64,000 nucleotides of DNA from a virus (IMGVR_UViG_3300025450_000013), one strand, 5' to 3'; shown: positions 11,381-63,999, numbered from the stretch's first letter. The notes: generated by a model from the sequence alone, not told the origin. Made by a program: numbers and translations.

Positions 11381-11452
11381 TGGAGCGGAGACTGTGTAAT
11401 CGAAACACAGATTCCAGGGGGGACCTGGGTAATACCTTTATACGATCTCCGC
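11381..11452 (-). tRNA. Non-canonical tRNA-Gly-like RNA (CCC-containing loop), 72 nt, encoded CCA
   Basis: GCGGAGA TC GTAT AAAGGT ATTAC CCAGG TCCCC CCTGG AAT CTGTGT TTCGATT ACACAG TCTCCGC T CCA: perfect 7-bp acceptor stem, U73, glyT-like D-arm, but a 6-bp T-stem and a shortened anticodon loop. Confidence 0.8.
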
Positions 11453-11486
11453 ATTTATACCCTGCTATAATACCGACGATTTTTAT

Positions 11487-11515
11487 ATTATAGCAAAGTA
11501 TTGGTGTTATGTCAA
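11487..11515 (-). promoter_or_regulatory. Consensus sigma70 promoter driving the tRNA-like RNA and HTH gene
   Basis: TTGACA-17 nt-TATAAT, extended -10 TG, upstream A-tract. Confidence 0.85.
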
Positions 11516-11527
11516 CAACTTTTTTTA

Positions 11528-11655
11528 TCTCTTTAGAAGGATACAGGTTTACTACCGTCCGCATTATGATGGTGGCCATTCCAGAGCATAACCTATTTGG
11601 TTGGCAAGGTTCAGGGTGATCATTCCCCAAGCGAGCCTGTATCCATCTAAGGAGA
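11528..11655 (+). ncRNA. Unidentified structured RNA (about 25-bp closing stem around a multibranch core), antisense to flanking genes
   Basis: TCTCTTTAGAAGGATACAGGTTTACT pairs with AGCGAGCCTGTATCCATCTAAGGAGA; inner hairpins CTACCGTC/GATGGTGG and AACC/GGTT; irregular pairs are mostly G-U on + but A-C on -. Confidence 0.55.
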
Positions 11656-11682
11656 CAGGGGAAAATCCCCTGTCATTTTTTT
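11654..11682 (+). terminator. Plus-strand intrinsic terminator
   Basis: GACAGGGGA-AAA-TCCCCTGTC-A-TTTTTTT; no U-tract in the minus direction. Confidence 0.75.
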
Positions 11683-11683
11683 A

Positions 11684-12910
11684 TTAGAAAGTAGGACCAG
11701 AGGCGCCATTAGCACCAACGGCACCCGGATACTCAACTTCACCAGTAGCACCTGTAGCACCAACAACAGGATCGGCGGTTTCATCCACTTTACGATACAA
11801 CTCTAAAAAGGCATTTTTCGTATCAACGTCAAAACGGTTGAGGCACAATTCAATAGCCTTTACCTTGTTTTGGTTGAAGATGGAATATGCCTCGCAGATA
11901 TGGACAAGACGGCGGGTTGAGATGATTTCACTCAAAGCACCTTCAAAGAAGGACTTGCGGATAACATCTGCCCAAGTAACCAACTTGTCAACAAACTCCG
12001 TTGCGGTGATACCGGATGCTTGTAGAACATTGTTGAGGATTTTTGTCTCAACCTTAGCGGCAGGATATTCTTGTTCCATTGTAATGCTGAAACGCTCAAG
12101 GAACGCCTCATTCATAACATTGGTGCCGATAAAGCGGCCGTCATCAGAACCTTTGCCTTTAGTATTGGCAGTGGCAACAATGTTAAAACCTGACGCAGGG
12201 TGAACCACACGGTTAGTTTTTTTCAGATAGATTGCTTTACCTTCAAGCACCGGCTGGAGGCACATAAGTTTGTTGGAACCGAGGTCAACCTCGTCCAGTA
12301 ATAGTAAGGCACCGCGAGACATAGCAGTAATAACAGGACCGTCTTGCCATACGGTCTCGCCATTGATAAGACGGAAACCACCGATAAGGTCGTCCTCGTC
12401 GGTCTCAATTGTAATGTTGACACGGACACATTCTTTCTTTTCTTGGGCACATACTTGTTCCACCATCATAGTTTTACCGTTGCCAGAAAGGCCGGTGATA
12501 TATGTTGGATAGAACTTTTTGGATTTGATGATAGCACGGACGTCCGTGAAATGGCCGAACGGAACATAACCGAGTGCCTTTTCAGGAACAAGTGAAACCT
12601 CGGCGTTAGTAGAAACAACCGAAGGTGCCACCATAGCAACGGCCACGGCAGGCGCCGCTTTCGGAGTTGGTGCCTTAGGAGCCGGGGCAACTTTTTTAGC
12701 AACCTTTGGAGAAGCATCGGCGCCGTGTTCAGGAAGAGAATAGATACCACGACCAATCTTGCGGGATACGTCATTAAGTATCCAGTTAGGTTTATCAAGT
12801 CCGTATTTGTCGCAGATTTCCAGGACTTGCGGACGGGTGATTGAACGGATAGCACCAAACTCGAAACGGATTTTATCGAGGAACTCGGTGCGGTCAATCT
12901 TCTTAGCCAT
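11684..12910 (-). CDS. cobS: MoxR/CobS-like AAA+ ATPase
   Basis: GLSGNGKT, DEDDLIGG, WQDGPV, LLLDEVD, ATANTKGKG, NEAFLERF, ISTRRL; start moved to MAKKI because the track start lies upstream of the promoter. Confidence 0.9.
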   Translation of the reverse strand: MAKKIDRTEFLDKIRFEFGAIRSITRPQVLEICDKYGLDKPNWILNDVSRKIGRGIYSLPEHGADASPKVAKKVAPAPKAPTPKAAPAVAVAMVAPSVVSTNAEVSLVPEKALGYVPFGHFTDVRAIIKSKKFYPTYITGLSGNGKTMMVEQVCAQEKKECVRVNITIETDEDDLIGGFRLINGETVWQDGPVITAMSRGALLLLDEVDLGSNKLMCLQPVLEGKAIYLKKTNRVVHPASGFNIVATANTKGKGSDDGRFIGTNVMNEAFLERFSITMEQEYPAAKVETKILNNVLQASGITATEFVDKLVTWADVIRKSFFEGALSEIISTRRLVHICEAYSIFNQNKVKAIELCLNRFDVDTKNAFLELYRKVDETADPVVGATGATGEVEYPGAVGANGASGPTF

Positions 12911-12946
12911 TAGAACTATTCCTTTCAGATTTCTCATTATATATGG

Positions 12947-12975
12947 ATTATAGCATACGGAATGGTAGGTGTCAA
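12947..12975 (-). promoter_or_regulatory. Consensus sigma70 promoter for the cobS-like gene
   Basis: TTGACA-17 nt-TATAAT with extended -10 TG. Confidence 0.85.
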
Positions 12976-12978
12976 CCA

Positions 12979-13284
12979 TTATTTTCGATTGTAAACACCG
13001 TTGTTTTTCTTAGACTTTTTCTTTGAGTATGCCTTCTTGATTTCCTCAGGGTATGTAAACAAGCACAGGTCGGCACTCGCACCTTCCCAAGGAACCCATC
13101 GTTTTACTGTGGCACGGTCATCTTGCTTATCATATTCATAACTTCCGTGTGTGTTCCACCACAAGTCAAACTTGTTTTTAGGGCGCCATATATCAATAAA
13201 TCGCCAATAGTTTGTATCATAGTTATCTTCCAACCATCCAGCATATCGACCATTATCTCGGTCAGGAGATTTATATTCTTTCAT
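12979..13284 (-). CDS. Hypothetical Trp-rich protein
   Basis: 101-aa ORF coupled (TAATG) to the upstream vWA gene. Confidence 0.6.
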   Translation of the reverse strand: MKEYKSPDRDNGRYAGWLEDNYDTNYWRFIDIWRPKNKFDLWWNTHGSYEYDKQDDRATVKRWVPWEGASADLCLFTYPEEIKKAYSKKKSKKNNGVYNRK

Positions 13285-15515
13285 TATGCTACCTTCTTTG
13301 CTTGTGTTGCGATACGGTCAACAAACTGACGGAGCAGAACTCGATTGACCGTCTTTTTCATGGCAAACTTGGAGAATGCCGCAGCCATTCGTTTTGGAGA
13401 CATTTTCTTTTCACCGCTATTGTCGATTTCCAGTTTGTTAGTATTATCGCCAATGGCATTAGAGTCAATAACATAGTATTCATCATAGCCGGCACTCTGA
13501 ACAGGATAGAACTTATTGTCCTGCCAGAACTTTTTAACTTTTGTATCTTTATCGGTATAACTCCAAAGGTTAAAGTCAGACATGAACCGTTTGAAGTTCC
13601 GCTCAAAGAGATAGAAACCAACAAGGTTACAACCGGTGCGGTCTTTTAGAATACGCAGGAGGACATTTGTATTGTTTTGCGTACCCATCCAACCCCAAGG
13701 CTCATAGTCATATGTCTTGCGGGTTACCGGATCAACATAGAAATACTTGCGGTTAGCAGACCGTTGCGTAGTGGTCATACCTGTAGTAGGAAGAGTTTCA
13801 TTCTTTACACCTTCACCACTGTCAGAACCACCGTCGGTCATAAAGATAGTATTGACGATTTCCAGTTTGTTCTTAGCACGGAAATCTTCAACCATCTTAG
13901 GAGCAATCATAATGGCCAGGTTCAGAGGTGTACCGCCGAGGCCGTCGCAACCGATATAGTTCCGACCAGAGGTATACCAAAGCATGGACATGGCGAAGTT
14001 AAGTTCCTGTGTATTCATACGGGATGATAAGAAGTTCCGCATAACCACGGCACCACCACCAATCACATTTTGCTGGTTCATATATGTGAATGGATTGTCT
14101 GCACCGCAATCCCTGAAAGCATATACCTCAAAAGGCACTCCGATTTGTTTACAGAATAAGCAAAGGGAGAATAGTTGCTTTAGAGTATTGCGGAGGTTAT
14201 ACTGCATAGAACCAGACCAATCAAGGAACATGATAAAGCCGTGGTTCTTGCCTTTTGGAATAACCGTCAGGCGGCGGAAGATATCATCATTATACTTGTA
14301 AGAATGGAGTTTGTTAGTATCAATAACACCAGTCTTGGCAATATTGATACGGGCATACATTTCAGCAGCCTTTTTAGCCTCAAACTCCTTGACCAAGAAA
14401 GAGATGGTTTCTTTCTCTTTCATTTTCCATTGCGTCATATCTTTCTGGCAAGCAAGGAAGGTAACGTTATCAAAATAACGGGTGGTCATTTCTTTGCGCC
14501 AGTCTTCAAGGACCATTTTGTAATCGTTTATGGCCTTGTCCCAATTTACTTGCGGCATATTGAGATAGATATAATGGCAGTTTTCGTCCTTTACGATATC
14601 TTGGGAACGTTTCTGCCACGTTTGATCCGTTTCAGACACAGGAACATTGTCAGGAACCTCGGTGTTTTGACCAGCACCGTCGCCTGATTTATTGGACTCA
14701 GCTTCAAGGTCGCCTTCGCCTTGGGTTACACCATTGGCCTTTTCTTCACTTTCACCGGAATCGGTTTCATCTTCATCCTGGCCTTGGCCTTCACCGTCAT
14801 CATCACTAGTATCACGGTTGTCATTGCCATCATAATCGGAGTAATCATCGCCTTCTCCTTCTTCGGACTCGCCTTCAACAAGGTCGATTTCCATTTCTTG
14901 CTGGTTTTCAAGTTTTTCTTTACAAAACTTGTAGATTTCCTCCGTGAGTGCAACAACCTCATCGAAAGTTTCCAGACCTTCGGCACGTTTTATGAATACA
15001 CGTTCCTCAGGTGAAAATTCTATATTCATATTTATATTGCCGCCTTTGAAATATACATTCATGCGGTCAATAAAATTCATGGTATTGATATCACGTTTAG
15101 CTGTGCCAAAGAAGTCACGTTCCATAAGTTCCTTGTAACCGATAAGATAGTTTTTACGGGAACCAGGATAGCGGCGTTTCTGGCGCTTATCAATACGAGC
15201 ATCCTCAACACAGTTAAGGAAACCTTTAACCGTTGATTGTAATTGTTCGGAAACTTTTTCATTAGGAAAAATACGTGCGGTGATATCCTCATATGCCTTT
15301 TTATATGTGTCGGCATCAGGAGTATCTAGAGCATGACCCGTCTCATGGACAATAAGGAGGTCCTGAAGATCATTAGAAATACCTTGCCACAAAGGAAGCA
15401 TAAGGACACGACCTTTGAGGTCGAACATTGCCGTTTTGATACCGGGAGTTTGTTGGACCGTGATATTTTCCGTGGCAAGGAGTTTTGCTAACAAAGAAGT
15501 TTGATTGCCTGACAT
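13284..15515 (-). CDS. CobT-like protein: HExxH metallopeptidase-like domain, acidic linker, vWA domain
   Basis: VHETGHAL, NCVEDARI, D/E-rich linker, MIDAS DWSGSM, GGTPL, FMTDG; start moved to MSGNQ. Confidence 0.85.
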   Translation of the reverse strand: MSGNQTSLLAKLLATENITVQQTPGIKTAMFDLKGRVLMLPLWQGISNDLQDLLIVHETGHALDTPDADTYKKAYEDITARIFPNEKVSEQLQSTVKGFLNCVEDARIDKRQKRRYPGSRKNYLIGYKELMERDFFGTAKRDINTMNFIDRMNVYFKGGNINMNIEFSPEERVFIKRAEGLETFDEVVALTEEIYKFCKEKLENQQEMEIDLVEGESEEGEGDDYSDYDGNDNRDTSDDDGEGQGQDEDETDSGESEEKANGVTQGEGDLEAESNKSGDGAGQNTEVPDNVPVSETDQTWQKRSQDIVKDENCHYIYLNMPQVNWDKAINDYKMVLEDWRKEMTTRYFDNVTFLACQKDMTQWKMKEKETISFLVKEFEAKKAAEMYARINIAKTGVIDTNKLHSYKYNDDIFRRLTVIPKGKNHGFIMFLDWSGSMQYNLRNTLKQLFSLCLFCKQIGVPFEVYAFRDCGADNPFTYMNQQNVIGGGAVVMRNFLSSRMNTQELNFAMSMLWYTSGRNYIGCDGLGGTPLNLAIMIAPKMVEDFRAKNKLEIVNTIFMTDGGSDSGEGVKNETLPTTGMTTTQRSANRKYFYVDPVTRKTYDYEPWGWMGTQNNTNVLLRILKDRTGCNLVGFYLFERNFKRFMSDFNLWSYTDKDTKVKKFWQDNKFYPVQSAGYDEYYVIDSNAIGDNTNKLEIDNSGEKKMSPKRMAAAFSKFAMKKTVNRVLLRQFVDRIATQAKKVA

Positions 15516-15540
15516 TCCGTAACCTTTCTCGATTTTCACT

Positions 15541-15569
15541 ATTATAGCAAATCGAACCTGGTTTGTCAA
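15541..15569 (-). promoter_or_regulatory. Consensus sigma70 promoter for the cobT-like gene
   Basis: TTGACA-17 nt-TATAAT with extended -10 TG. Confidence 0.85.
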
Positions 15570-15579
15570 GTCCGTTAGG

Positions 15580-15592
15580 AATCAGTAGGTTA
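15580..15592. promoter_or_regulatory. IHF-type binding site just upstream of the -35 box
   Basis: AATCAGTAGGTTA fits WATCAR-N4-TTR. Confidence 0.5.
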
Positions 15593-15603
15593 GCGGGTTA
15601 GAC

Positions 15604-15651
15604 GATTGTAAACATAAGAGAATGTGAAGATTACCGCATAGATTGTAAACA
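15604..15651. repeat. Direct repeat GATTGTAAACA (two copies; third copy at 12987-12997)
   Basis: Exact 11-mers at 15604, 15641 and 12987, each upstream of a strong promoter. Confidence 0.65.
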
Positions 15652-15711
15652 CGGAAAGGATTACTTCCGCGTTGTCATACATATGGTTCACTTTATAAAA
15701 GTCAAAATATT

Positions 15712-16209
15712 TCATGCCTTTTTTATCCTCTTGTTGAACCTTGCCTTTGATATATGTGCAATATGTTCATCAATCTTTTTTAGACGGAGATATTTACAAA
15801 GTGTATCAACCACAACCTCATCTCTTTCCGCCTTTGTGATATACTTTACATAAATTGGTTCATCATGTCGGATGAAACCAATCTTTCTTATCTTTTTGGC
15901 CGCACTATGACCTTCATCATCTCTACACATATCGGCAAGTTCTTTTTCAAACCTATATACTCTATATCGTATATTGCCTTCACCAGCATATATACATTCA
16001 TATTGATTGAAATCACCTTTATGATAGATAAGATATAATCCAGGACTATCTGGTAGTTCTTTCATATTTACATCAAGTGTAACACCTCTATCGGTTTTAT
16101 CTGAACTAACCACCACAAAATCTTTTTGTAACATACGTTCAAAGATTTTTTCCGCAACATCATGTTCTGTCAGTTTTTCATTACCATCTGTAAGGTCATA
16201 GTGTGCCAT
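15712..16209 (-). CDS. GIY-YIG-like nuclease-domain protein
   Basis: LPDSPGLYLIY...CIYAGEGNIRYRV and C-terminal RFN resemble the GIY-YIG core. Confidence 0.5.
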   Translation of the reverse strand: MAHYDLTDGNEKLTEHDVAEKIFERMLQKDFVVVSSDKTDRGVTLDVNMKELPDSPGLYLIYHKGDFNQYECIYAGEGNIRYRVYRFEKELADMCRDDEGHSAAKKIRKIGFIRHDEPIYVKYITKAERDEVVVDTLCKYLRLKKIDEHIAHISKARFNKRIKKA

Positions 16210-16210
16210 T

Positions 16211-17470
16211 TTATCTTCCCACCTGTGTTAGGTATTTGGCCTTTGTCTCTTCCCAATCCATATAGATTAGGTCATCATAGAAAAGAGTTTCCTTAGAAAC
16301 ACGGTCTTGCTCAATCAAGGACTTGATCCGTTTTCCTGCATACTTGTCTTTCCATAGATTTACCAGAGCATCATAACTGGAATCAAACGCCTTGGCAAGT
16401 TTATCTTCGGTGATTTCCTTACGAAGAAACTCGTTGGTGTTGTTATACAAAGGACTAAAATAGATACCACGGGCATGTTCAGAACGGATAAGTTCTTTAG
16501 GAATATTCAGTTGAGAATATATAAATGTGTAAGAACGGTTTTTGTGGTCTCTTTTATAAGGCAAACCATCAAGGTTCTTAGCTACATACCACTCAAAGTA
16601 TTTGCGGGTATGGTTTTTCTTCAACCAATCTAGCATTAGTTTTACAGTAGGTTTTCTTGCTTCATAAGAGACAGAGCCTGATGTGAAGCCCATTTTCTTC
16701 CAATGTTGTAGGCGATCATATTGCGATAACTGGTTAGTTTTAGACTTACCGTATAATGATGTAGTAGTGACGCCAATGAGTGTATCACCATATTGTTTTT
16801 TCCAATCCTGTTGTACCTTATCACAAAGACAAAGTAATGCTAAAAGTTTACCACCTGTGTAGTTATAACCAAGTGGTTGTAGAGGCACAATGGTAGAACC
16901 AATGGCCGTATGATTGATCATACCTTGACTTGTCTTAACATCACGGGACCATCCAATATGGTTATCTCGTGGAGTCAAGTCTAAGAAGTCAGAAGAGATA
17001 CAAATTACCCCTAGGTACTTTCCGGTAACATCATCTTGAACAATATAATTCATGTTCCTTCCGATGTTGTTATTATTCTTCATGGTAGAAGTAAAGTTGC
17101 GAATGGTGTTCCATTTACTAGCAAGATCACCACCATTAGAATAGATTAGTCTAGGTTGCAATTTCTCATAGTCTATTGGATCGTTTGGTATCCAAATATT
17201 ATCTTTAATAGATTGAATATACTTTTTATCCTTTTCATCAATATCATCATCATATAATCCACCTGGTATGATAGGATATTTGATATGGATTTCTAACCAC
17301 TTTTGATAGAGTGTGTATTCCTCTACAGTCATAGCGGATACATTTGTGAGGTCCTCAATGACGACCTTTTTTAGTTGTTCATCATTAAGGGCCTCAGGTG
17401 TTTCAAATGTAGAGTTAAATGCATCCCATTGCTTTTCAACATTTTTTAGTTCTTCATCACTTTTTGCCAT
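16211..17470 (-). CDS. DUF4338/DruA-like protein, probable Mom-related GNAT fold
   Basis: IGRNMNYIV, LGVICISS, PRDNHIGW, PLGYNYTGGKLLALL, GVTTTSLYG, SQY, WKKMGFTSG. Confidence 0.7.
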   Translation of the reverse strand: MAKSDEELKNVEKQWDAFNSTFETPEALNDEQLKKVVIEDLTNVSAMTVEEYTLYQKWLEIHIKYPIIPGGLYDDDIDEKDKKYIQSIKDNIWIPNDPIDYEKLQPRLIYSNGGDLASKWNTIRNFTSTMKNNNNIGRNMNYIVQDDVTGKYLGVICISSDFLDLTPRDNHIGWSRDVKTSQGMINHTAIGSTIVPLQPLGYNYTGGKLLALLCLCDKVQQDWKKQYGDTLIGVTTTSLYGKSKTNQLSQYDRLQHWKKMGFTSGSVSYEARKPTVKLMLDWLKKNHTRKYFEWYVAKNLDGLPYKRDHKNRSYTFIYSQLNIPKELIRSEHARGIYFSPLYNNTNEFLRKEITEDKLAKAFDSSYDALVNLWKDKYAGKRIKSLIEQDRVSKETLFYDDLIYMDWEETKAKYLTQVGR

Positions 17471-17656: not shown

Positions 17657-17753
17657 ATTGTTTGCTCCAGAGATAGCTGTTTAGTTTTGAGACAGAATGT
17701 GCTACTCTGTCCATAAACCAACTATTCCAGAACCAGTGATTATAACGTTTCAT
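17643..17753 (-). CDS. Hypothetical 36-aa Trp-rich peptide (not in ORF track)
   Basis: MKRYNHWFWNSWFMDRVAHSVSKLNSYLWSKQYGKN; ATGA overlap with the upstream stop. Confidence 0.5.
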   Translation of the reverse strand: MKRYNHWFWNSWFMDRVAHSVSKLNSYLWSKQYGKN

Positions 17754-17986
17754 TTTAGAACTCCATTGTTGATTAGGCCGGCAAGGTAAATCACAGTGAT
17801 TACTAACTCAATAGTAATCAACGACCATTTACGCCACGATAAGGCGACCACCAACCACCCTAGATTACCTATCAGTGATAGATAAACATTCATAGGATAT
17901 ACATTGTAAGATGTGAGTGCTGCACCTGCTAATAGCAAAAAGGTTGACAACCACTCAAAGCAAAACTCTACTTTTTTAGGAAACAT
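17750..17986 (-). CDS. Small three-helix membrane protein (half-PnuC-like)
   Basis: EWLST, YPMNVYLSLIGNLGWLVV, WSL; three hydrophobic segments. Confidence 0.6.
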   Translation of the reverse strand: MFPKKVEFCFEWLSTFLLLAGAALTSYNVYPMNVYLSLIGNLGWLVVALSWRKWSLITIELVITVIYLAGLINNGVLK

Positions 17987-18386: not shown

Positions 18387-20108
18387 TTATTGTTCTTTTG
18401 TCAAGACCGAAAAGTTTTTTACCTTTTCAAACTTTACCGTTCTTTGGAAACGGTCAATCATGGCATCTTTATGTGATATAACAAAGATATTAGAACCACT
18501 GTCACCCATGTCCCACATGATCTTGATAAACTCATCCGTTCCACTAGCATCCATAGCACGGTCAAGGATCTCATCGAACACAAGTATATTCACATTAACG
18601 GAGTTTTTCATCTTGGCAATCTGTCTCCATGTAAGGAGAATAGCCAAGTCTATTCGTAACTTTTCTCCTTCGGAAAAGTTGTGGTATGAGAACTCGTCTC
18701 GGTATCTTGACTTGATTGATTCCTCGAATGACTCATTAATATTAAAGTTGACAAAAAAGCCAAGTTTAGCGAGGTACTTATTGATATGTTTATTAATGAT
18801 AGGTAGATACTGTTTAATGATTTTTGTCTTGATTCCACCATCTTTAAGTAGAGTAGTGGCCAAGTCCACATATTGGCGTTCATCTAGAAGGGCCTTCTTT
18901 TCTTCTTCGAGGGAGGAAATATCATGTTGGACTTGAATGAGTTGTCGTTCCGACTCTTGGGTAGTTGTGTCAGATAATGCGAACGTTTCAATCTGTGCCA
19001 CAATTTGAGACAGATTATTAGAAATATGGTTATAGGAAGACCTACTAGATGTAAGATCCATCTTAACTCCATTAAGACGCTTGAGAACCTCATCAATCTT
19101 CTCTATTTCTTCCAGGACGGCAGTAATCTGTTCGTCAGCCTTATTTATACCCTGAGATATTTCATCAATCTTAGCATTACTATCTTTGATGTTCTTTTCT
19201 TTATGGTCGGCAGCAATGTCCTGCTTACAGGTAGGACAACTATCATTATCGTGATAGAACGACACCTCTTTCATCAATCTTTCTGAATTGCCTTCCATCT
19301 TGGCCTTGAAACCGACTAACTTACCATACTTTGTCCTTAATGCCGAGGTATCAATACCTTGTTCGAGGAGTTCATCTCTTTGCTTCTCTAGGTCGGAAAT
19401 AGTCGTTTTCTCGGAAACTAAACTATCTTTTAGTTCCTGTTCTTTCTCTCGTAAAAGAGCAAGTTTAGTTTCATTATTCGACTTTAAGGACTCTAAAGTC
19501 TGCTCAATGTAAGTTTTATTTTCATTTTTACTGGTTAAAGTAATCCTATTCTTCTCTAGTCCTTCACGGTTGATCTGTAGTCGGTTCTTAACCACATTAG
19601 ACATAGCAGAAAAGATTTGAATATCTAGAAGGTCCTCAATCACCGTTCTACGGTCACCAGGTGACAACTGCATGAAAGGAACAAATGATGCCGAACCAAG
19701 AATAACAACTTGTGTAAAAGACTTAAAGTTCATCTTTAGAATGTGCTTTTCTAGATGCTCTTGATAGTCCTTGGCCGCTGCATCCTGGTTGACCATTTTA
19801 CCTTCACAATAAATCTCGAAGATATTTGGCTTCGCACCACGAATAATCTTGTACCGTTTGTTTGAAATAGAAAACTCAATCTCCACCTCACAGTTCTTAC
19901 CATTGATAGAATTTACCACATTACCTTTGTTAACCTTACGAAAAGGTTTACCAAACAACACAAAGGTCAAGGCATCCAGAAATGTGGATTTACCTGATCC
20001 ATTATGTCCCATGATTAAGGTGTTCTTATGTGTATCTAACTCCAACTCGGTCCAGTTGTTACCGGTTGCAAGAAAGTTTTTATAGCGAATTGTATGGAAT
20101 GTTATCAT
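18387..20108 (-). CDS. gp46: Recombination endonuclease ATPase subunit (Rad50/SbcC-like)
   Basis: YKNFLATGN, GHNGSGKST, zinc hook CPTC, FSEGEKLRID, VFDEILD, VISH. Confidence 0.97.
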   Translation of the reverse strand: MITFHTIRYKNFLATGNNWTELELDTHKNTLIMGHNGSGKSTFLDALTFVLFGKPFRKVNKGNVVNSINGKNCEVEIEFSISNKRYKIIRGAKPNIFEIYCEGKMVNQDAAAKDYQEHLEKHILKMNFKSFTQVVILGSASFVPFMQLSPGDRRTVIEDLLDIQIFSAMSNVVKNRLQINREGLEKNRITLTSKNENKTYIEQTLESLKSNNETKLALLREKEQELKDSLVSEKTTISDLEKQRDELLEQGIDTSALRTKYGKLVGFKAKMEGNSERLMKEVSFYHDNDSCPTCKQDIAADHKEKNIKDSNAKIDEISQGINKADEQITAVLEEIEKIDEVLKRLNGVKMDLTSSRSSYNHISNNLSQIVAQIETFALSDTTTQESERQLIQVQHDISSLEEEKKALLDERQYVDLATTLLKDGGIKTKIIKQYLPIINKHINKYLAKLGFFVNFNINESFEESIKSRYRDEFSYHNFSEGEKLRIDLAILLTWRQIAKMKNSVNVNILVFDEILDRAMDASGTDEFIKIMWDMGDSGSNIFVISHKDAMIDRFQRTVKFEKVKNFSVLTKEQ

Positions 20109-20754
20109 ATTCACGTATTCTCTTGACAGGATTTAATATTTCAGACTCCAATTTTTTGACGAAAAATACCTGTACCAATCTAGTTTCATCACCCATATAG
20201 TAGTTACTTGGTGAATGTGGTATGTTTCCATCAAAACATATTAAACGGTTATACACGTTAGATATACGGACAGTTTCTTCAAAACATGAATTATTTTTAA
20301 TGATGTTTTGATCAAAGTCACAATCTTCACCTTTGGAATAAAACTTTTTCATATATGTACCATCTATGTCTTGTTTTTCTTTTATCTGTCTATAAATTGT
20401 TGTTCCTAAATTTCTATCAAAACCAGGTGTCAAATATACAACACCGGCCATTAGACATCCATCTTCATGTATCCATCCCATATTCTTAGGTGATAAAGGA
20501 TCAGGATCTAGAGTGTTTACCTTCCAAAAGTTTGTCTCTACTCTCCATTCTATATTGCCATAAGGATAATATATCTGAAATATTTTAGAAACAAAACCAG
20601 AAAATAATTCTCTATTTAAATCATATAGAGGTATTGTTCTTTTACCTGGATAGTTACCAGGAGAATCCAAAAAATGCTGTTTTAAGGCAAACTCTCTGAC
20701 CTTATTCGGATCATTATAAAAGTTGTCTATACATGTAGTAGGAAAGTTATTCAT
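20080..20754 (-). CDS. 2OG-Fe(II) oxygenase-like protein (DUF6445-like)
   Basis: IDNFYNDP..VREFAL, YPGKRT, WIHED (HxD), AGVVYLTP, GT, NVYNRL..F, PH, RLVQVFF. Confidence 0.75.
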   Translation of the reverse strand: MNNFPTTCIDNFYNDPNKVREFALKQHFLDSPGNYPGKRTIPLYDLNRELFSGFVSKIFQIYYPYGNIEWRVETNFWKVNTLDPDPLSPKNMGWIHEDGCLMAGVVYLTPGFDRNLGTTIYRQIKEKQDIDGTYMKKFYSKGEDCDFDQNIIKNNSCFEETVRISNVYNRLICFDGNIPHSPSNYYMGDETRLVQVFFVKKLESEILNPVKRIREYDNIPYNSL

Positions 20755-52355: not shown

Positions 52356-54104
52356 TTAGACCTTAGGTCCGTTGATTGTACCCATATTTATATACTTAAT
52401 ATTTGAGTTACCACATATTGCGGATCCTTGAGTACCTGGTGAACCTGATGCTCCCGAAGATCCTGGTGAACCTGGTGATCCTTGAGAACCGGCATTTCCT
52501 GGATGCCCTGTTGCTCCTGGTGAACCGGCATTTCCTGGTTGACCTGATGGCCCAGAATTTCCTGCTGATCCTGGGGATCCAGCATTTCCTGGTTGACCTG
52601 AATGCCCGGCCCCACCTGTTGATCCGGCTGAACCGGCTGGACCAGGTTGACCAGAATGACCAGCTGGTCCTCCACCACCACCGCCTCCTGGATATCCTGG
52701 TTGATTTAAGTCACCGCCTCCACCACCACCATTTGGACCGGATCTACCAAAATGATGGCTGCATCCGTGATGGTTAGCAGGTTGATGACTTGCTCCGTGA
52801 TAACATCCTGAAGCGTGGTGCCCATTATATCCACAATGGGCACAATTTACTTGGCCAGCACCTTGATGATTTGCGCTATAATGTGCTGCTGGTTGGTGCT
52901 GACCCCATCCACCACCTTGATGAGAATGACCGGGAGGTCCATGAGGACCACCACAAGCACTACCGCCTGGGCCTGGAGGTATACCTGCACCACCTCCACC
53001 GCCGCCTCTATGACCGGAAGCTCCGCCGCCGCCGCCTCCAGGTCCTCCTGGTCCAGAATTTCCACCTGAACCACCTGGTCCGGCACTTCCTCCAGAACCA
53101 CCTGGTCCTGCATTTCCACCTGAACCACCTGATCCAGCATAACCGCCTACGCCACCAGGTCCGGCATTTCCACCTGAACCACCTGGACCTCCCGGACCCG
53201 CAGCTCCACCTGGTCCTCCAGATCCACCAGGACCAGATGATCCTCCAGAACCTCCTGGACCAGATGATCCTCCACTTATTGTTGATGTATTGTTGAGAAT
53301 TATACTAACACCATATACGGCACATGCTTTAAGTGATACACCACCAGGTTGCCCGGTGCCTCCTGTACCACCAGGTTGCCCGGTGCCTCCTGCACCTCCT
53401 GGTTGACCACATCCACCTCGGACACCTGAACCTCCCGGTTGACCACAACCACCTAGGCCGCCTGAACCTCCTGGTTGGCCTGCACCTCCTGGTTGACCAC
53501 AACCACCTCGGCCACCTGGTTGACCATAACCACCTGGTTGACCGTGACCACCTGTACCTCCTGTGCCTCCTGGAGTACCGCCTCCACCATGGTGGCCTCC
53601 ACCGAACCATCCGGGTCCGTGACCTCCACCACCACCAGCACCAAATGCACCTGTACCACCTGGTTGACCGTGTGCTCCTGTGTATCCTGGTTGACCGTGT
53701 GCTCCTGTACCACCTGGGTTACCGTGACGACCTGCTCCACCTGGTTGACCGTGTGACCCTGTACCACCTGGTGTACCTACAGATCCTGAACTACCTGTAG
53801 CACCTGGATTTCCTGTAGAACCTACAGATCCTGGAGCACCTGGTGTGCCTGTAGCACCTGTAGTACCAGCTGCACCTGCTATGGTTGCTGAATTTTTAAT
53901 ATAAATTAGAGTACCTGGCCTCCAACTGGAACCTGTCTGTAAAGCAGGTGTTGAAGTTGAGGTACTTCCTATGTTAGCATTGATAAAAACAAATATATTA
54001 CCAGGGTAGGATGGGCTACCTGATTGATTGTAGAGATTAACATTATTAGTCGCGGAACTAATATTAATAATTTTTGTTGGTCTGGTAATAGGAAACAAGA
54101 ACAT
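52356..54104 (-). CDS. gp38-adhesin-like protein with very long Gly-X-X tracts and His/Cys-rich loop
   Basis: Framework segments NNVNLY...INANIGS...PALQTG...IYIKNSATIAG, IILNNTSTISGG and GSAICGNSNIKYINMGTING interrupted by four (GXX)n runs. Confidence 0.65.
   Translation of the reverse strand: MFLFPITRPTKIINISSATNNVNLYNQSGSPSYPGNIFVFINANIGSTSTSTPALQTGSSWRPGTLIYIKNSATIAGAAGTTGATGTPGAPGSVGSTGNPGATGSSGSVGTPGGTGSHGQPGGAGRHGNPGGTGAHGQPGYTGAHGQPGGTGAFGAGGGGGHGPGWFGGGHHGGGGTPGGTGGTGGHGQPGGYGQPGGRGGCGQPGGAGQPGGSGGLGGCGQPGGSGVRGGCGQPGGAGGTGQPGGTGGTGQPGGVSLKACAVYGVSIILNNTSTISGGSSGPGGSGGSSGPGGSGGPGGAAGPGGPGGSGGNAGPGGVGGYAGSGGSGGNAGPGGSGGSAGPGGSGGNSGPGGPGGGGGGASGHRGGGGGGAGIPPGPGGSACGGPHGPPGHSHQGGGWGQHQPAAHYSANHQGAGQVNCAHCGYNGHHASGCYHGASHQPANHHGCSHHFGRSGPNGGGGGGDLNQPGYPGGGGGGGPAGHSGQPGPAGSAGSTGGAGHSGQPGNAGSPGSAGNSGPSGQPGNAGSPGATGHPGNAGSQGSPGSPGSSGASGSPGTQGSAICGNSNIKYINMGTINGPKV
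52430..53880. repeat. GC-rich 9/27-bp periodic repeats coding Gly-X-X
   Basis: For example CCACCAGGTTGCCCGGTGCCTCCTG repeated with 27-nt period near 53341-53392; recurring CCTGGTTGACC. Confidence 0.8.
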
Positions 54105-61788: not shown

Positions 61789-63999
61789 TTATCTTGTCAA
61801 TCCAACTGCTGTAAAACTGAAACTAGCGGATACAGCCGCCCAACTACTGCTTCCCAATTGCGTAGGAGAAAAGACGTTTCCTGAAATAGTTCCATTACCT
61901 AATTCTCCATAACCAGAACTATTATAACCCCATACAAATAAAGCACTGTCGGATCTTATACCATAGCTAGAATATTGACTAGCATAAACAGCTGTCCAAC
62001 TACTATTTCCTATTTTTGTAGGTGATGTTATGGTACTTCCTCTTGCTGGATTTCCAGTGTAAGCTGCTCCACCAGTATATAGTGCGCCATTGTTACCAAT
62101 TGCGGCAGCAGTTGAACCACCGTTGCAGTTTGGTATAAAGCTAAACCCTGTACCAATTTGTGTTGGAGAACTGAGAATAAAAGTTGATGTATCGGTTCCT
62201 CCCAAATAATTAGATCCACTAGATGCATTAAGACCAGTACCAAATAAAACACCATCTATTCTTAACATCCAACTAGAATAATCTCCACTACTGCCGTTTT
62301 GGATACAAACAGCAGTCCACGAACTTGTTCCAATTTGAACAGGTGATGAATAGGAGGTGAGATTACCAGTACCTAAATATCCATATCCCCAGTAAGCTTG
62401 ATATCCCCATCCCCATAATGTACCATCTAATTTAATTCCTAAAGAACCGAAGCCACCACAAGAAACAGCTTTCCATGAACTTGTTCCAATTTGAACAGGT
62501 GATGAATATGTAGTAGCATTGTTGGTTCCTAGAGTGTTATAAAAATTATAACCCCATCCCCATAATGTCCCGTCTGCTCTAATTGCAAGCGCACAACTAC
62601 TTCCAACAGACACTAATGTCCAAGAACTAGTTCCAACCTGAACAGGTGATGAATAAAATGCAGTTGCAGTATTAACACCCAATGCTCCAGATGCATTGTA
62701 ACCCCATGAAAATAGGCTTCCTCCGCTTCTAATTCCTGCGGATTGATTAACACCTGTGGATATTGAAGTCCAACTACTAGTACCTACTTGGACAGGAGAA
62801 GATACATATGTATATTGTGCTATATTCTGACCAAGTTCTCCACCTGCATTGTAACCCCAAGACCATAAAGTATTATCCGCTCTTATTGCTAAAACATGAC
62901 AATAACCAACGGATACTGATTTCCAACTACTAGTACCTACTTGAACAGGAGAATAATATGATAAATTGTTATTCTGTCCTAATTGCCCGTATGCTCCGTT
63001 ACCCCATCCAAACAAAGCACCATCGTTTCTGATAGCAAAATTTGCATATAGTCCTAAACTAATTGCTGACCAACTGTTAGTTCCAAGTTGAGCCAAAGAT
63101 CCAGTAACATCAGTTGCTAGAGCACCATAAGTACTTGTACCCCATGCCCATAAAGAACCATCAGTAGTTACGCCAAGCACATGCGCATGGCCTAATGACA
63201 CAGCATTCCATGAACTTGTTCCAATCTGGACTGGAGATGAAGTTGCTGTAGTGTTTCCATTACCAAGTTGATAAAAAACATTATATCCCCATGCCCATAA
63301 TGTCCCATCTGCTCTAATTGCTACTGTTGTTCCGCTAACATTATTACCATTTAATCCTAAAACTTTCCAACTATTTGTTCCTACTTGAACTGGAGTTTGA
63401 ACTACTAAAGTACTGTTTAATCCTAGCGAACCGTTTGTGTTGGATCCCCACATAAAAAGACCACCATCTGATCTAATTGCACCAACATGAGAAGCACCAG
63501 CCGCAACAGAAGTCCAACTACTTTTTGATATTTGGTATGGAGCGTCCGAAAATGCCTGTCCTGATATAAGAGTAGTATAACCCCAAGACCATAAAGTATT
63601 ATCCGAACTTATTGCTAAAGCTGTGCTATGTCCTATAGAAACAGCTTTCCATGAACTTGTTCCAATCTGGACTGGAGAGTTTATTGTAGTAGGTATAATT
63701 CTTCCAACTGTAATCGTATTACCACCATAACCACCCCAAGTATAAAGAGCTCCTAAAGAATCAATAACTCCACCACCACAAAAATTATCAGTATTACCTG
63801 AACCACCTCCAGTTGGAAGCACAGACCAGCTGGAGGTTCCTATTTGTACTGGAGAAGATATAGAAAAAATACCAGCACCACCGCCTACCGCTGAGTTGAT
63901 AGCGCAAGTTTGAAACAACAATCCATCAGTTCTTAGAAGTAAACTAGAATAACCACCAAGAACTGATACAGCTTTCCACGAACTTGTTCCGATTTGAAC
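61789..63999 (-). CDS. RCC1-repeat beta-propeller protein, Ser/Thr-rich; 5' end outside the window
   Basis: Roughly 50-aa repeats SSPVQ(I/V)GTSSW..VS.G..H...IR.DG.LW.WG.N..G.LG; the frame stays open to the window edge (VQIGTSSWKAVSVLGG). Confidence 0.88.
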   Translation of the reverse strand, partial: VQIGTSSWKAVSVLGGYSSLLLRTDGLLFQTCAINSAVGGGAGIFSISSPVQIGTSSWSVLPTGGGSGNTDNFCGGGVIDSLGALYTWGGYGGNTITVGRIIPTTINSPVQIGTSSWKAVSIGHSTALAISSDNTLWSWGYTTLISGQAFSDAPYQISKSSWTSVAAGASHVGAIRSDGGLFMWGSNTNGSLGLNSTLVVQTPVQVGTNSWKVLGLNGNNVSGTTVAIRADGTLWAWGYNVFYQLGNGNTTATSSPVQIGTSSWNAVSLGHAHVLGVTTDGSLWAWGTSTYGALATDVTGSLAQLGTNSWSAISLGLYANFAIRNDGALFGWGNGAYGQLGQNNNLSYYSPVQVGTSSWKSVSVGYCHVLAIRADNTLWSWGYNAGGELGQNIAQYTYVSSPVQVGTSSWTSISTGVNQSAGIRSGGSLFSWGYNASGALGVNTATAFYSSPVQVGTSSWTLVSVGSSCALAIRADGTLWGWGYNFYNTLGTNNATTYSSPVQIGTSSWKAVSCGGFGSLGIKLDGTLWGWGYQAYWGYGYLGTGNLTSYSSPVQIGTSSWTAVCIQNGSSGDYSSWMLRIDGVLFGTGLNASSGSNYLGGTDTSTFILSSPTQIGTGFSFIPNCNGGSTAAAIGNNGALYTGGAAYTGNPARGSTITSPTKIGNSSWTAVYASQYSSYGIRSDSALFVWGYNSSGYGELGNGTISGNVFSPTQLGSSSWAAVSASFSFTAVGLTR

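What the first reader, a model, noticed from the sequence alone, without database searches (positions are those of the whole stretch)
11381..17470. Candidate tRNA-dependent DNA modification system: aberrant tRNA-Gly, Mom-like DUF4338 protein and GIY-YIG-like nuclease
Seen: a DUF4338-like gene (16211-17470) one base from a GIY-YIG-like gene (15712-16209), with the aberrant tRNA-Gly about 4.3 kb downstream of the pair in the same sigma70-driven region. Inference: the motif order of the 419-aa protein (GVICISS...GKLLALL...VTTTSLYG...SQY...WKKMGFTSG) parallels Mom-family GNATs. Known: phage Mu Mom adds a glycine-like carbamoylmethyl group to adenine. I recall, and it needs verifying, that Gly-tRNA-Gly was reported as its donor. 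Hypothesis: the phage supplies a private glycyl-tRNA to modify its own DNA while the coupled nuclease cuts unmodified DNA. The linkage is loose because the cobT/cobS genes lie in between.
Basis: inference. Interest (0 to 1): 0.75.

Follow-up and report, generated by a model that had tools for sequence, protein, structure and literature searches.

The report
Phage glycine-tRNA mimic with DruA acyltransferase
A T4-like phage related to SAR11 (Pelagibacter) phages carries a strongly promoted small RNA that keeps every feature needed to be loaded with glycine yet cannot read codons, and in related phages this RNA travels with a DruA-family acyltransferase gene whose nearest solved relative is phage Mu's Mom, which points to an untested system that uses tRNA-bound glycine to modify DNA or another target.

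Summary
Window 11381-11452 (minus strand) is a 72-nt cloverleaf RNA behind a 12/12 sigma70 promoter. ARAGORN and Rfam miss it because its central loop has 5 nt instead of 7. It keeps the bacterial tRNA-Gly identity set: G1:C72, C2:G71, G3:C70, U73, an NCC loop and an encoded CCA.

A covariance model built only from other phages' copies finds it as the sole hit in the window. In 56 of 80 related viral loci, one or two copies lie 23-136 nt downstream of the DruA-like gene. Other arrangements also occur: after cobS, directly upstream, or elsewhere in the genome.

The 419-aa protein is Pfam DruA (ex-DUF4338) with a confident GNAT fold. Mu Mom is its top structural neighbour but only by a tie margin, and profile comparison shows no Mom-family membership.

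The 165-aa neighbour is plausibly GIY-YIG, but it is a sporadic insert (5 of 80 loci), not a conserved partner.

Best reading (about 45%): a private glycyl-carrier RNA feeds a tRNA-dependent GNAT transferase, with DNA the favoured but unproven target. I found no paper describing this link. The scan has noted the same system before on other DNA (e1-5388419, e1-5618211).

The parts
11381..11452 (-). 72-nt tRNA-Gly-like RNA. It has a 7-bp acceptor stem (GCGGAGA/UCUCCGC), U73 and an encoded CCA. The D-arm is 3 bp with a GG-containing loop. The central stem is 5 bp with a 5-nt loop UCCCC. The T-arm is 6 bp with loop UUCGAUU.
   Evidence: Fold, z -3.4. Model R2, built without the window, scores 38.5 bits, E 5e-7. 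Acceptor and D-arm covariation with 6 counterparts: 98.8% paired against 40-63% in slid controls. Not called by ARAGORN or Rfam.
11487..11515 (-). Sigma70-type promoter TTGACA-17-TATAAT with TG extended -10. It ends 34 nt before G1 of the RNA.
   Evidence: 12 of 12 consensus positions. The same promoter is conserved in L002 and L003.
16211..17470 (-). 419-aa DruA-family (PF14236, ex-DUF4338) GNAT-fold protein with N- and C-terminal helical extensions.
   Evidence: Pfam E 3e-21. phrog_19197. PADLOC DruA. AF2 model pLDDT 94.1. All top structural matches are GNATs, with Mom 8bv8 first.
15712..16209 (-). 165-aa GIY-YIG-like protein. A sporadic neighbour, probably a free-standing homing-type or EndoII-like nuclease, and not a conserved part of the system.
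13284..15569 (-). cobT-like 761-aa protein (phrog_459). Conserved synteny partner; a functional role in the system is not shown.
   Evidence: phrog_459 E 3e-185. It follows the DruA-like gene in 73/80 loci.
11684..12979 (-). cobS AAA+ (MoxR-like) ATPase. Conserved synteny; a functional role is not shown.
   Evidence: AAA_5 and CbbQ_C. phrog_249. Present in 56/80 loci.
11654..11674 (.). GC-rich hairpin just after the cobS stop, separating cobS from the RNA's own promoter.

Best explanation
The window encodes a two-part system. One part is a DruA-family GNAT-fold transferase (16211-17470). The other is a dedicated, highly expressed tRNA-Gly mimic (11381-11452).

Proposed mechanism:
1. Host RNA polymerase transcribes the RNA from its own consensus promoter, and RNase P trims the leader.
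2. Host GlyRS charges the RNA with glycine. This is possible because the RNA keeps G1:C72, C2:G71, G3:C70, purine4:pyrimidine69, U73, the C35-C36 equivalents and an encoded CCA.
3. The shortened central loop (5-6 nt) and, in most relatives, a stunted D-arm keep the RNA out of ribosomal decoding. It therefore acts as a private pool of activated glycine.
4. The GNAT enzyme takes the glycyl group from the RNA's 3' end and transfers it to an acceptor. By analogy with Mom and from gene context, the acceptor is most likely phage DNA.

Shown: the RNA family, its covariation, its glycine-type signature, its genetic association with the gene, and the GNAT fold.
Inferred: charging, exclusion from translation, use as donor, and the DNA target.

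My step-wise odds:
- RNA family real and tRNA-Gly-derived: 0.97.
- Functionally tied to the DruA-like gene: about 0.7.
- Glycyl donor for it: about 0.5.
- Acceptor is DNA: about 0.3.
For: 1. RNA family. 21 distinct gene-adjacent copies give 89.7% paired cells against 40-47% in slid controls. 19 of 23 pairs have compensatory changes, and 0/500 shuffles reach the observed values. G1:C72, C2:G71, G3:C70, the loop CC, G53:C61, A58 and CGC-U-CCA are invariant.

2. Glycine type. These invariants are the determinants of bacterial alpha2beta2 GlyRS (PMC10464925). In whole phage genomes the model's best hits among about 30 tRNAs are the tRNA-Gly genes. All 66 ARAGORN-callable matches to the signature in viral contigs are tRNA-Gly.

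3. Linkage to the gene.
- 56/80 loci have 1-2 copies 23-136 nt after the DruA-like gene on the same strand. Shuffled sequence gives 4.6 hits anywhere.
- The window, L002-L004 and cultured HTVC008M have it after cobS.
- L103 and L180 have a tRNA-Gly 25 nt upstream of the gene. L169 and L176 (homologues at 28-35% identity) and S-SSM7 have a solitary tRNA-Gly within 0.9-3.2 kb.
- Apparent orphan copies sit in genomes that carry the gene elsewhere (G001, Mosig, G006, G007).
- S-M1 and QB2 share the cobS/cobT/gp46 synteny but have neither the gene nor the RNA.

4. Own transcription unit. Consensus promoters end 9-34 nt before G1, and copies are often followed by terminators.

6. DNA context. The gene lies between gp46/gp47 and the gp45/gp44 replication genes. 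In cyanophages the homologue sits between gp44 and gp62, a slot that in S-M1 holds a D12 N6-adenine DNA methyltransferase. DUF4338 is also reported fused to DndF (PMC10853773).
Against: - No biochemical or expression data.
- The gene-adjacent arrangement is essentially one clade (40 distinct rows, no losses). The 56 loci therefore count as roughly one ancestral placement plus retention.
- Strong family members (L127, 76 bits) occur with no DruA-like gene within +/-5.7 kb on short contigs.
- 15 distinct DruA-like loci have no adjacent RNA. Distant homologues on L098-L102 have none nearby, and none was found in S-SM2.
- Mom leads other GNATs by less than 1 Z unit, which is a tie, and profile comparison finds no specific relationship.
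- GlyRS is reported to need the overall L-shape (PMC10464925). Charging of the stunted mini-forms is therefore uncertain.
- One contig encodes both a DruA-like protein and a true Mom, so the two are not simple equivalents.
Confidence: 0.45

Rival explanations
1. The RNA and the GNAT gene have unrelated functions, and their proximity is inherited gene order. Under this reading the RNA acts alone. It could be a decoy for host tRNA-targeting defence nucleases, a sponge or regulator of GlyRS or glycine status, or a processing signal. The GNAT would use acyl-CoA on some other substrate.
Against: At least four further arrangements keep a tRNA-Gly or mimic next to DruA-like genes, including homologues at 28-35% identity. 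The RNA is the only tRNA-like gene in HTVC008M, which is listed with 0 tRNAs in PMC7029224, and the only one in the window. Two relatives without the gene also lack the RNA. A decoy would not need strict retention of the acceptor identity set plus an encoded CCA.
Confidence: 0.25
2. The RNA is the enzyme's target or regulator rather than its donor. For example, the GNAT could acylate the amino group of the glycyl-RNA, as TacT/AtaT-type toxins do with charged tRNA. Alternatively the RNA could bind and restrain the enzyme like an RNA antitoxin.
For: GNAT toxins acting on Gly-tRNAGly exist (TacT, discussed in PMC13219725). The gene-RNA pairing with a separate strong promoter for the RNA resembles toxin/antitoxin stoichiometry control.
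Against: No TacT/AtaT-type chain is among the 50 rows listed in either Z-ranked search. The gene sits in a lytic T4-like replication/recombination module. The family is elsewhere fused to DNA-acting proteins (PMC10853773).
Confidence: 0.1
3. The RNA is a working but unusual decoding tRNA-Gly. It might boost GGN decoding or promote frameshifting with a 2-base anticodon, for instance to help translate glycine-rich phage proteins such as the collagen-repeat protein at 52356-54104.
For: ARAGORN calls the L003/L004 orthologue a tRNA with a 2-base anticodon. Some relatives carry fully canonical tRNA-Gly genes instead. The window encodes a collagen-repeat protein.
Against: Central loops are 5-6 nt on stems of 5-8 bp. 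The mini-forms have a 3-bp D-arm with a 4-nt loop lacking G18G19, and T-loops with G or U in place of the usual U55/C56. Rfam's tRNA model does not match at all. These features are conserved rather than decaying.
Confidence: 0.05
4. One reading: the 165-aa GIY-YIG-like protein is the system's nuclease arm, cutting unmodified DNA while the GNAT protects phage DNA.
For: The genes are one base apart. The fold and motifs resemble GIY-YIG nucleases, including T4 EndoII. From my own knowledge, EndoII attacks unmodified host DNA. When the gene is present, it is always directly after the DruA-like gene.
Confidence: 0.08

Closest known systems
Mom of bacteriophage Mu (Pfam PF25680; PDB 8bv8), a GNAT that transfers glycine from Gly-tRNAGly to N6 of adenine in dsDNA (PMC13219725)
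   Different: No detectable sequence or profile relationship and a different Pfam family. The protein is about 180 residues longer, with helical N- and C-terminal extensions. Mom uses ordinary host tRNAGly, whereas here the phage supplies its own non-decoding mimic. One phage contig carries both families. Product and target are unknown.
Non-proteinogenic tRNAGly isoacceptors with FemXAB in Staphylococcus aureus (PMC7826273; Villet 2007, PMC2175331)
   Different: The staphylococcal tRNAs are full-size with 7-nt anticodon loops and can still decode. The phage RNAs have 5-6-nt loops and often a stunted D-arm. Fem enzymes have two GNAT domains and act on peptidoglycan precursors. The system here is viral.
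DruA of type I Druantia (Pfam PF14236 / PADLOC DruA)
   Same: Same protein family by Pfam and PADLOC.
   Different: No DruB-E partners are present. The gene is in a lytic phage replication/recombination module, and it is paired with an RNA gene. The biochemical role of DruA itself is not described in the papers I found.
GIY-YIG nucleases: T4 EndoII (2wsh), R.Eco29kI (3mx4) and free-standing homing endonucleases. This comparison concerns the 165-aa neighbour only.
   Same: Order of conserved G-x-Y, Y-x-G, R, H, E, N residues. These are the best fold matches. The patchy presence is typical of mobile endonuclease genes.

Membership tests
Canonical tRNA (Rfam RF00005 / ARAGORN) | Recognised by tRNA covariance or heuristic models | tested here: not met
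   ARAGORN finds 0 genes in the window. Rfam gives no hit at gathering score, and no tRNA hit at E<=10 in the 500 nt around the RNA. Orthologues in L003 and L004 are called 'tRNA-???' with a 2-base anticodon.
Canonical tRNA (Rfam RF00005 / ARAGORN) | 7-nt anticodon loop on a 5-bp stem | tested here: not met
   The window has a 5-bp stem with the 5-nt loop UCCCC. Relatives have 6-nt loops, or 8-bp stems with 5-nt loops.
Canonical tRNA (Rfam RF00005 / ARAGORN) | Four-arm cloverleaf maintained by compensatory changes | tested here: met
   89.7% of cells paired and 19/23 pairs covarying. For the window type, acceptor and D-arm are 98.8% paired.
Substrates of bacterial alpha2beta2 GlyRS (tRNAGly identity) | G1:C72, C2:G71, U73, C35 and C36, plus purine4:pyrimidine69 (PMC10464925) | tested here: met
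   Invariant in 21 mini-forms and 7 large forms. Position 4:69 is G:C or A:U. CC is invariant in the central loop.
Substrates of bacterial alpha2beta2 GlyRS (tRNAGly identity) | Actual glycylation by GlyRS | not testable with these tools
   Needs an aminoacylation assay. PMC10464925 notes that the L-shape matters.
DruA family (Pfam PF14236, ex-DUF4338) | Score above Pfam gathering threshold | tested here: met
   76.2 bits against a cut-off of 27, residues 120-350. PADLOC DruA E 1e-19.
Druantia type I defence system | DruA together with DruB, DruC, DruD and the DruE helicase | tested here: not met
   None of 9 neighbouring proteins matches a Druantia model. gp46 gives only generic SMC-type hits. 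The neighbours are cobT-like, cobS and gp46/gp47.
GNAT acyltransferase superfamily | GNAT core fold | tested here: met
Mom family (Pfam PF25680) | Sequence or profile membership | tested here: not met
   No PF25680 hit. BLASTP E>1. hhalign probability 0.1%.
Mom family (Pfam PF25680) | Catalytic residues equivalent to R111, S124 and R151 (PMC13219725) | not tested
   No residue-level structural superposition was available. The family's own invariant residues are G154, G206, G207, K208, Y251, G335 and W373.
Mom family (Pfam PF25680) | Closest structural neighbour, clearly separated from other GNATs | tested here: inconclusive
Fem / aminoacyl-tRNA-dependent transferases | Tandem GNAT domains and a specific match to FemX/FemA | tested here: inconclusive
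GIY-YIG nuclease superfamily (165-aa protein) | GIY...YIG motifs with conserved R, E and N, and the GIY-YIG fold | tested here: inconclusive

The most novel reading that the evidence does not exclude
Abundant marine and freshwater T4-like phages (pelagimyophage type) encode a self-contained nucleic-acid hypermodification system. A virus-made, non-decoding glycyl-carrier RNA is charged by the host GlyRS. A DruA-family GNAT then uses it to aminoacylate phage DNA. If so, the whole DUF4338/DruA family would be tRNA-dependent nucleic-acid aminoacyl-transferases. That would include the unexplained DruA of Druantia, and the modules that earlier unchecked notes of this scan report fused to transposases.
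Probability: 0.3. Interest if true: 0.9.

Novelty: new variant of a known kind. Interest (0 to 1): 0.8.

Why it matters
Mom was until now the only enzyme known to use charged tRNA to modify DNA. A second, unrelated-in-sequence GNAT family that brings its own glycine carrier would have four consequences.
1. It would show that tRNA-dependent modification is a wider viral strategy.
2. It would give the first testable biochemical hypothesis for DruA/DUF4338, which includes the Druantia protein.
3. It would reveal a class of viral tRNA mimics that standard tRNA finders miss. HTVC008M is listed with 0 tRNAs.
4. It would concern phages of SAR11, among the most abundant hosts in the ocean.

Two carriers (HTVC008M, Mosig) are in culture, so the idea can be tested directly.

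Tried and rejected
- ARAGORN and Rfam (gathering and E<=10) do not call the RNA.
- Megablast of the region against phage genomes found only cobS at 74% identity.
- blastn-short with the element found only L002, so covariance models were needed.
- A relaxed cloverleaf scanner was too noisy, with 120 hits in shuffled sequence, and was replaced by the acceptor-signature scan.
- Mom against the DruA-like family: no BLASTP hit, hhalign 0.1%.
- Foldseek alone gave only E>=0.015 for both models.
- Distant homologues on L098-L102 have no RNA nearby, and the record behind L098 is not held.
- One look-up returned no DNA.
12 of 24 uncalled matches were chance matches.
- Three weak hits in high-GC phages or a provirus without the gene look like ordinary tRNA-Gly remnants.
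- No whole genome is held for the window.
- The careful ML tree did not finish, so the quick IQ-TREE tree was used.
- The Koonin-lab YprA preprint does not mention DruA's fold.
- One script call returned nothing and was repeated.
- The central and T-arm registers of the large RNA type are not consistent in the MAFFT alignment. Only the acceptor, the D-arm and two T-arm pairs were counted there.


Full report
**What is in the window**

All genes of the region lie on the minus strand. The window is part of a T4-like myovirus. It encodes gp23 capsid, scaffold, gp18 sheath, UvsW, gp47 (Metallophos), gp46 (SMC-like), gp45 and gp44.

The order in the direction of transcription is:
- gp47, a DUF6445 gene, gp46
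- several small ORFs, including a DUF6552 gene
- the 419-aa DruA-like gene (16211-17470)
- the 165-aa gene (15712-16209)
- cobT-like (13284-15569), a 101-aa ORF, cobS (11684-12979)
- a hairpin, a promoter, the tRNA-like RNA (11381-11452)
- an 80-aa ORF, then further downstream gp45 and gp44

The closest cultured relatives of the 419-aa protein are the Pelagibacter myophages Mosig EXVC030M (58.7% identity, annotated 'DUF4338 domain-containing protein') and HTVC008M (57.3%).

**The RNA**

ARAGORN and Rfam do not call any tRNA in the window. The minus strand 11381-11452 nevertheless folds as a cloverleaf at -24.9 kcal/mol, z -3.4. Its parts are:
- a 7-bp acceptor stem, a U discriminator and an encoded CCA
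- a 3-bp D-arm whose loop keeps GG
- a 5-bp central stem closing a 5-nt loop, UCCCC
- a 6-bp T-arm with loop UUCGAUU

A 12/12 TTGACA-17-TATAAT promoter with an extended -10 ends 34 nt upstream.

Orthologues after cobS in L002 and L003/L004 keep the promoter and the shape. They change stem sequences in a compensatory way, and the central stem is entirely different, while the loop still reads UUCCCA or UUCCAU.

**A family, and a link to the gene**

A first model (R1) unexpectedly found weak hits directly downstream of the DruA-like gene in more distant loci. A signature scan then looked for GCG..., a 7-bp acceptor stem and CGC-N-CCA. It found 64 elements in 56 of 80 loci, each 23-136 nt after the gene on the same strand. 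Three further loci have the element after cobS. Only two hits lie elsewhere. Shuffled loci give 4.6 hits per replicate, spread anywhere.

These 63-69-nt forms fold as mini-cloverleaves:
- a 6-7-bp acceptor stem
- a 3-bp D-arm with a 4-nt loop
- an 8-bp central stem with a 5-nt NNCCN loop
- a 5-bp T-arm with a 7-nt loop

On 21 distinct sequences, 89.7% of cells pair against 40-47% when partners are slid. 19 of 23 pairs show changes on both sides, and no shuffle reaches the observed values. The invariant positions are G1:C72, C2:G71, G3:C70, the loop CC, G53:C61, A58 and CGC-U-CCA.

Model R2, built from these copies only, finds the window's RNA at 38.5 bits, E 5e-7, as the only hit in the window. 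The window's 'aberrant tRNA' therefore belongs to this family. For the larger window type, the acceptor and D-arm are 98.8% paired across seven sequences.

**Glycine identity**

The invariant positions are the determinants of bacterial alpha2beta2 GlyRS: G1:C72, C2:G71, C35, C36 and U73, with a purine at position 4 and a pyrimidine at 69 (PMC10464925).

In complete phage genomes with tRNA clusters, R2's best hits are the tRNA-Gly genes. In a scan of viral contigs with the signature, all 66 ARAGORN-callable matches are tRNA-Gly.

The shortened loops, stunted D-arms and altered T-loops argue against ribosomal decoding. This is an inference from what is known of tRNA architecture. The same paper warns that GlyRS needs the L-shape, so charging is plausible but unproven.

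**How strong is the linkage?**

A quick ML tree of the DruA-like proteins shows that the adjacent arrangement is essentially one clade, with 40 distinct rows and no loss inside it. It should be counted as about one ancestral placement that has been retained.

Independent support comes from the other arrangements:
- After cobS in the window clade and in HTVC008M.
- 6.5 kb downstream in Mosig and about 33 kb away in G001. Both are aberrant forms that ARAGORN misses.
- A callable tRNA-Gly(UCC) 25 nt upstream of a 59%-identity homologue in L103 and L180.
- A solitary tRNA-Gly near homologues at 28-35% identity in L169, L176 and L164 (0.9-7 kb away), and 3.2 kb downstream in S-SSM7.

Apparent orphan RNAs on long contigs (G006, G007) sit in genomes that encode DruA-like genes elsewhere. 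S-M1 and QB2 share the gp46/cobT/cobS synteny but have neither the gene nor the RNA.

Evidence against a strict link:
- Strong family members on short contigs have no gene in view (L127, L120, L173).
- 15 distinct loci have no adjacent RNA.
- No RNA lies near some distant homologues.
- None was found in S-SM2.

**Expression**

Nearly all adjacent copies have their own sigma70-type promoter ending 9-20 nt before G1. 19 of 37 distinct contexts meet stringent consensus, and most others have a clear TATAATT. Many copies are followed by a hairpin plus a U-run. Several loci carry two tandem copies. No RNA-seq evidence could be obtained.

**The enzyme**

The 419-aa protein matches Pfam DruA, phrog_19197 and PADLOC DruA. 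None of its neighbours matches Druantia partners.

It has thousands of relatives: 4,240 hits at 90% clustering and 910 representatives at 50% clustering.

Sequence tests find no Mom relationship. The protein is therefore a GNAT of the DruA family. 'Works like Mom' is a hypothesis, and 'is a Mom' is not supported.

Several context facts favour a nucleic-acid target:
- The gene's position among recombination and replication genes.
- The cyanophage homologues sit between gp44 and gp62. In S-M1 that slot holds a D12 N6-adenine DNA methyltransferase.
- DUF4338 is reported fused to DndF (PMC10853773).

One contig has both a DruA-like gene and a true Mom gene.

**The 165-aa neighbour**

It has no Pfam, PHROG, NCBIfam or PADLOC family, and only 25 related clusters.

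The gene follows the DruA-like gene in only 5 of 80 loci and is absent from the closest relatives. This fits a mobile free-standing endonuclease better than an obligatory partner.

**Literature and earlier notes**

Mom's use of Gly-tRNAGly is established (PMC13219725). DUF4338 occurs in four papers of the searched library, and none links it to tRNA. The Phold preprint notes DruA-like CDSs in six Synechococcus phages. The pelagimyophage survey lists HTVC008M with 0 tRNAs (PMC7029224). I found no paper describing the RNA or its link to DruA.

The scan's own notebook holds two earlier reports of the same system on other DNA (e1-5388419, e1-5618211), and several reports of DUF4338 modules on transposases. 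I treated these as leads. My census, models and structure searches were run independently and agree with them.

**Verdict**

The most likely mechanism is a private glycyl-carrier RNA feeding a DruA-family GNAT transferase, with DNA as the favoured but unproven acceptor. The GIY-YIG gene is incidental.

Noticed in passing
L098:6001-7212 and L098:10041-10868: A 66-kb phage contig encodes both a DruA-like protein (33% identity to the window's) and a true Mom-family protein (PF25680, E 3e-49). They lie 2.8 kb apart among replication genes, so the two families coexist and are not simple substitutes.
   Followed up: partly
L226:335-1168 (Synechococcus phage S-M1); compare L092:2671-3813, L093, L094: The slot between the clamp-loader genes gp44 and gp62 holds a D12 N6-adenine DNA methyltransferase in S-M1 (PF02086, E 8e-28). 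In S-SSM7, S-SM2 and S-SCSM2R it holds a DruA-like gene, which one record annotates as 'methylcarbamoylase mom'.
   Followed up: partly
L090:9998-10071 (HTVC008M) and L096:1501-1574 (Mosig EXVC030M): Both cultured Pelagibacter myophages carry an unannotated member of the tRNA-Gly-like RNA family (29 and 35 bits). HTVC008M is published as having 0 tRNAs.
   Followed up: yes
L029:5658-5797; also L058, L061, L067, L070, L076, L078, L080: These loci carry two tandem, diverged copies of the RNA, 4-6 nt apart, downstream of the DruA-like gene.
   Followed up: partly
L169:7070-7142: A solitary tRNA-Gly with the unusual anticodon ACC lies about 870 nt upstream of a distant DruA-like gene (28% identity). 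Several mini-forms also have an ACC-type loop (UACCC).
   Followed up: no
G006 (contig of L134): L223 and L225: One 136-kb phage contig encodes two DruA-like paralogues (505 and 170 bits) in addition to the RNA.
   Followed up: no
window 52356-54104 (-): A 582-aa protein with collagen triple-helix repeats explains the GC-rich patch (GC 0.50 against about 0.36 elsewhere). It is presumably a fibre or structural protein.
   Followed up: partly
window 61789-63921 (-): A 710-aa protein made of RCC1-like repeats (PF25390, E 1e-128), unusual in a phage. It may extend beyond the window's end.
   Followed up: no
window 13284-15569 and 11684-12979 (-): The cobT-like/cobS pair follows the DruA-like gene in nearly all relatives (73 and 56 of 80 loci). 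Whether this AAA+ pair takes part in the same process is open.
   Followed up: partly
window 20080-20754 and 17750-17986 (-): Genes of unknown function, DUF6445 (between gp47 and gp46) and DUF6552, flank the recombination genes upstream of the DruA-like gene.
   Followed up: no
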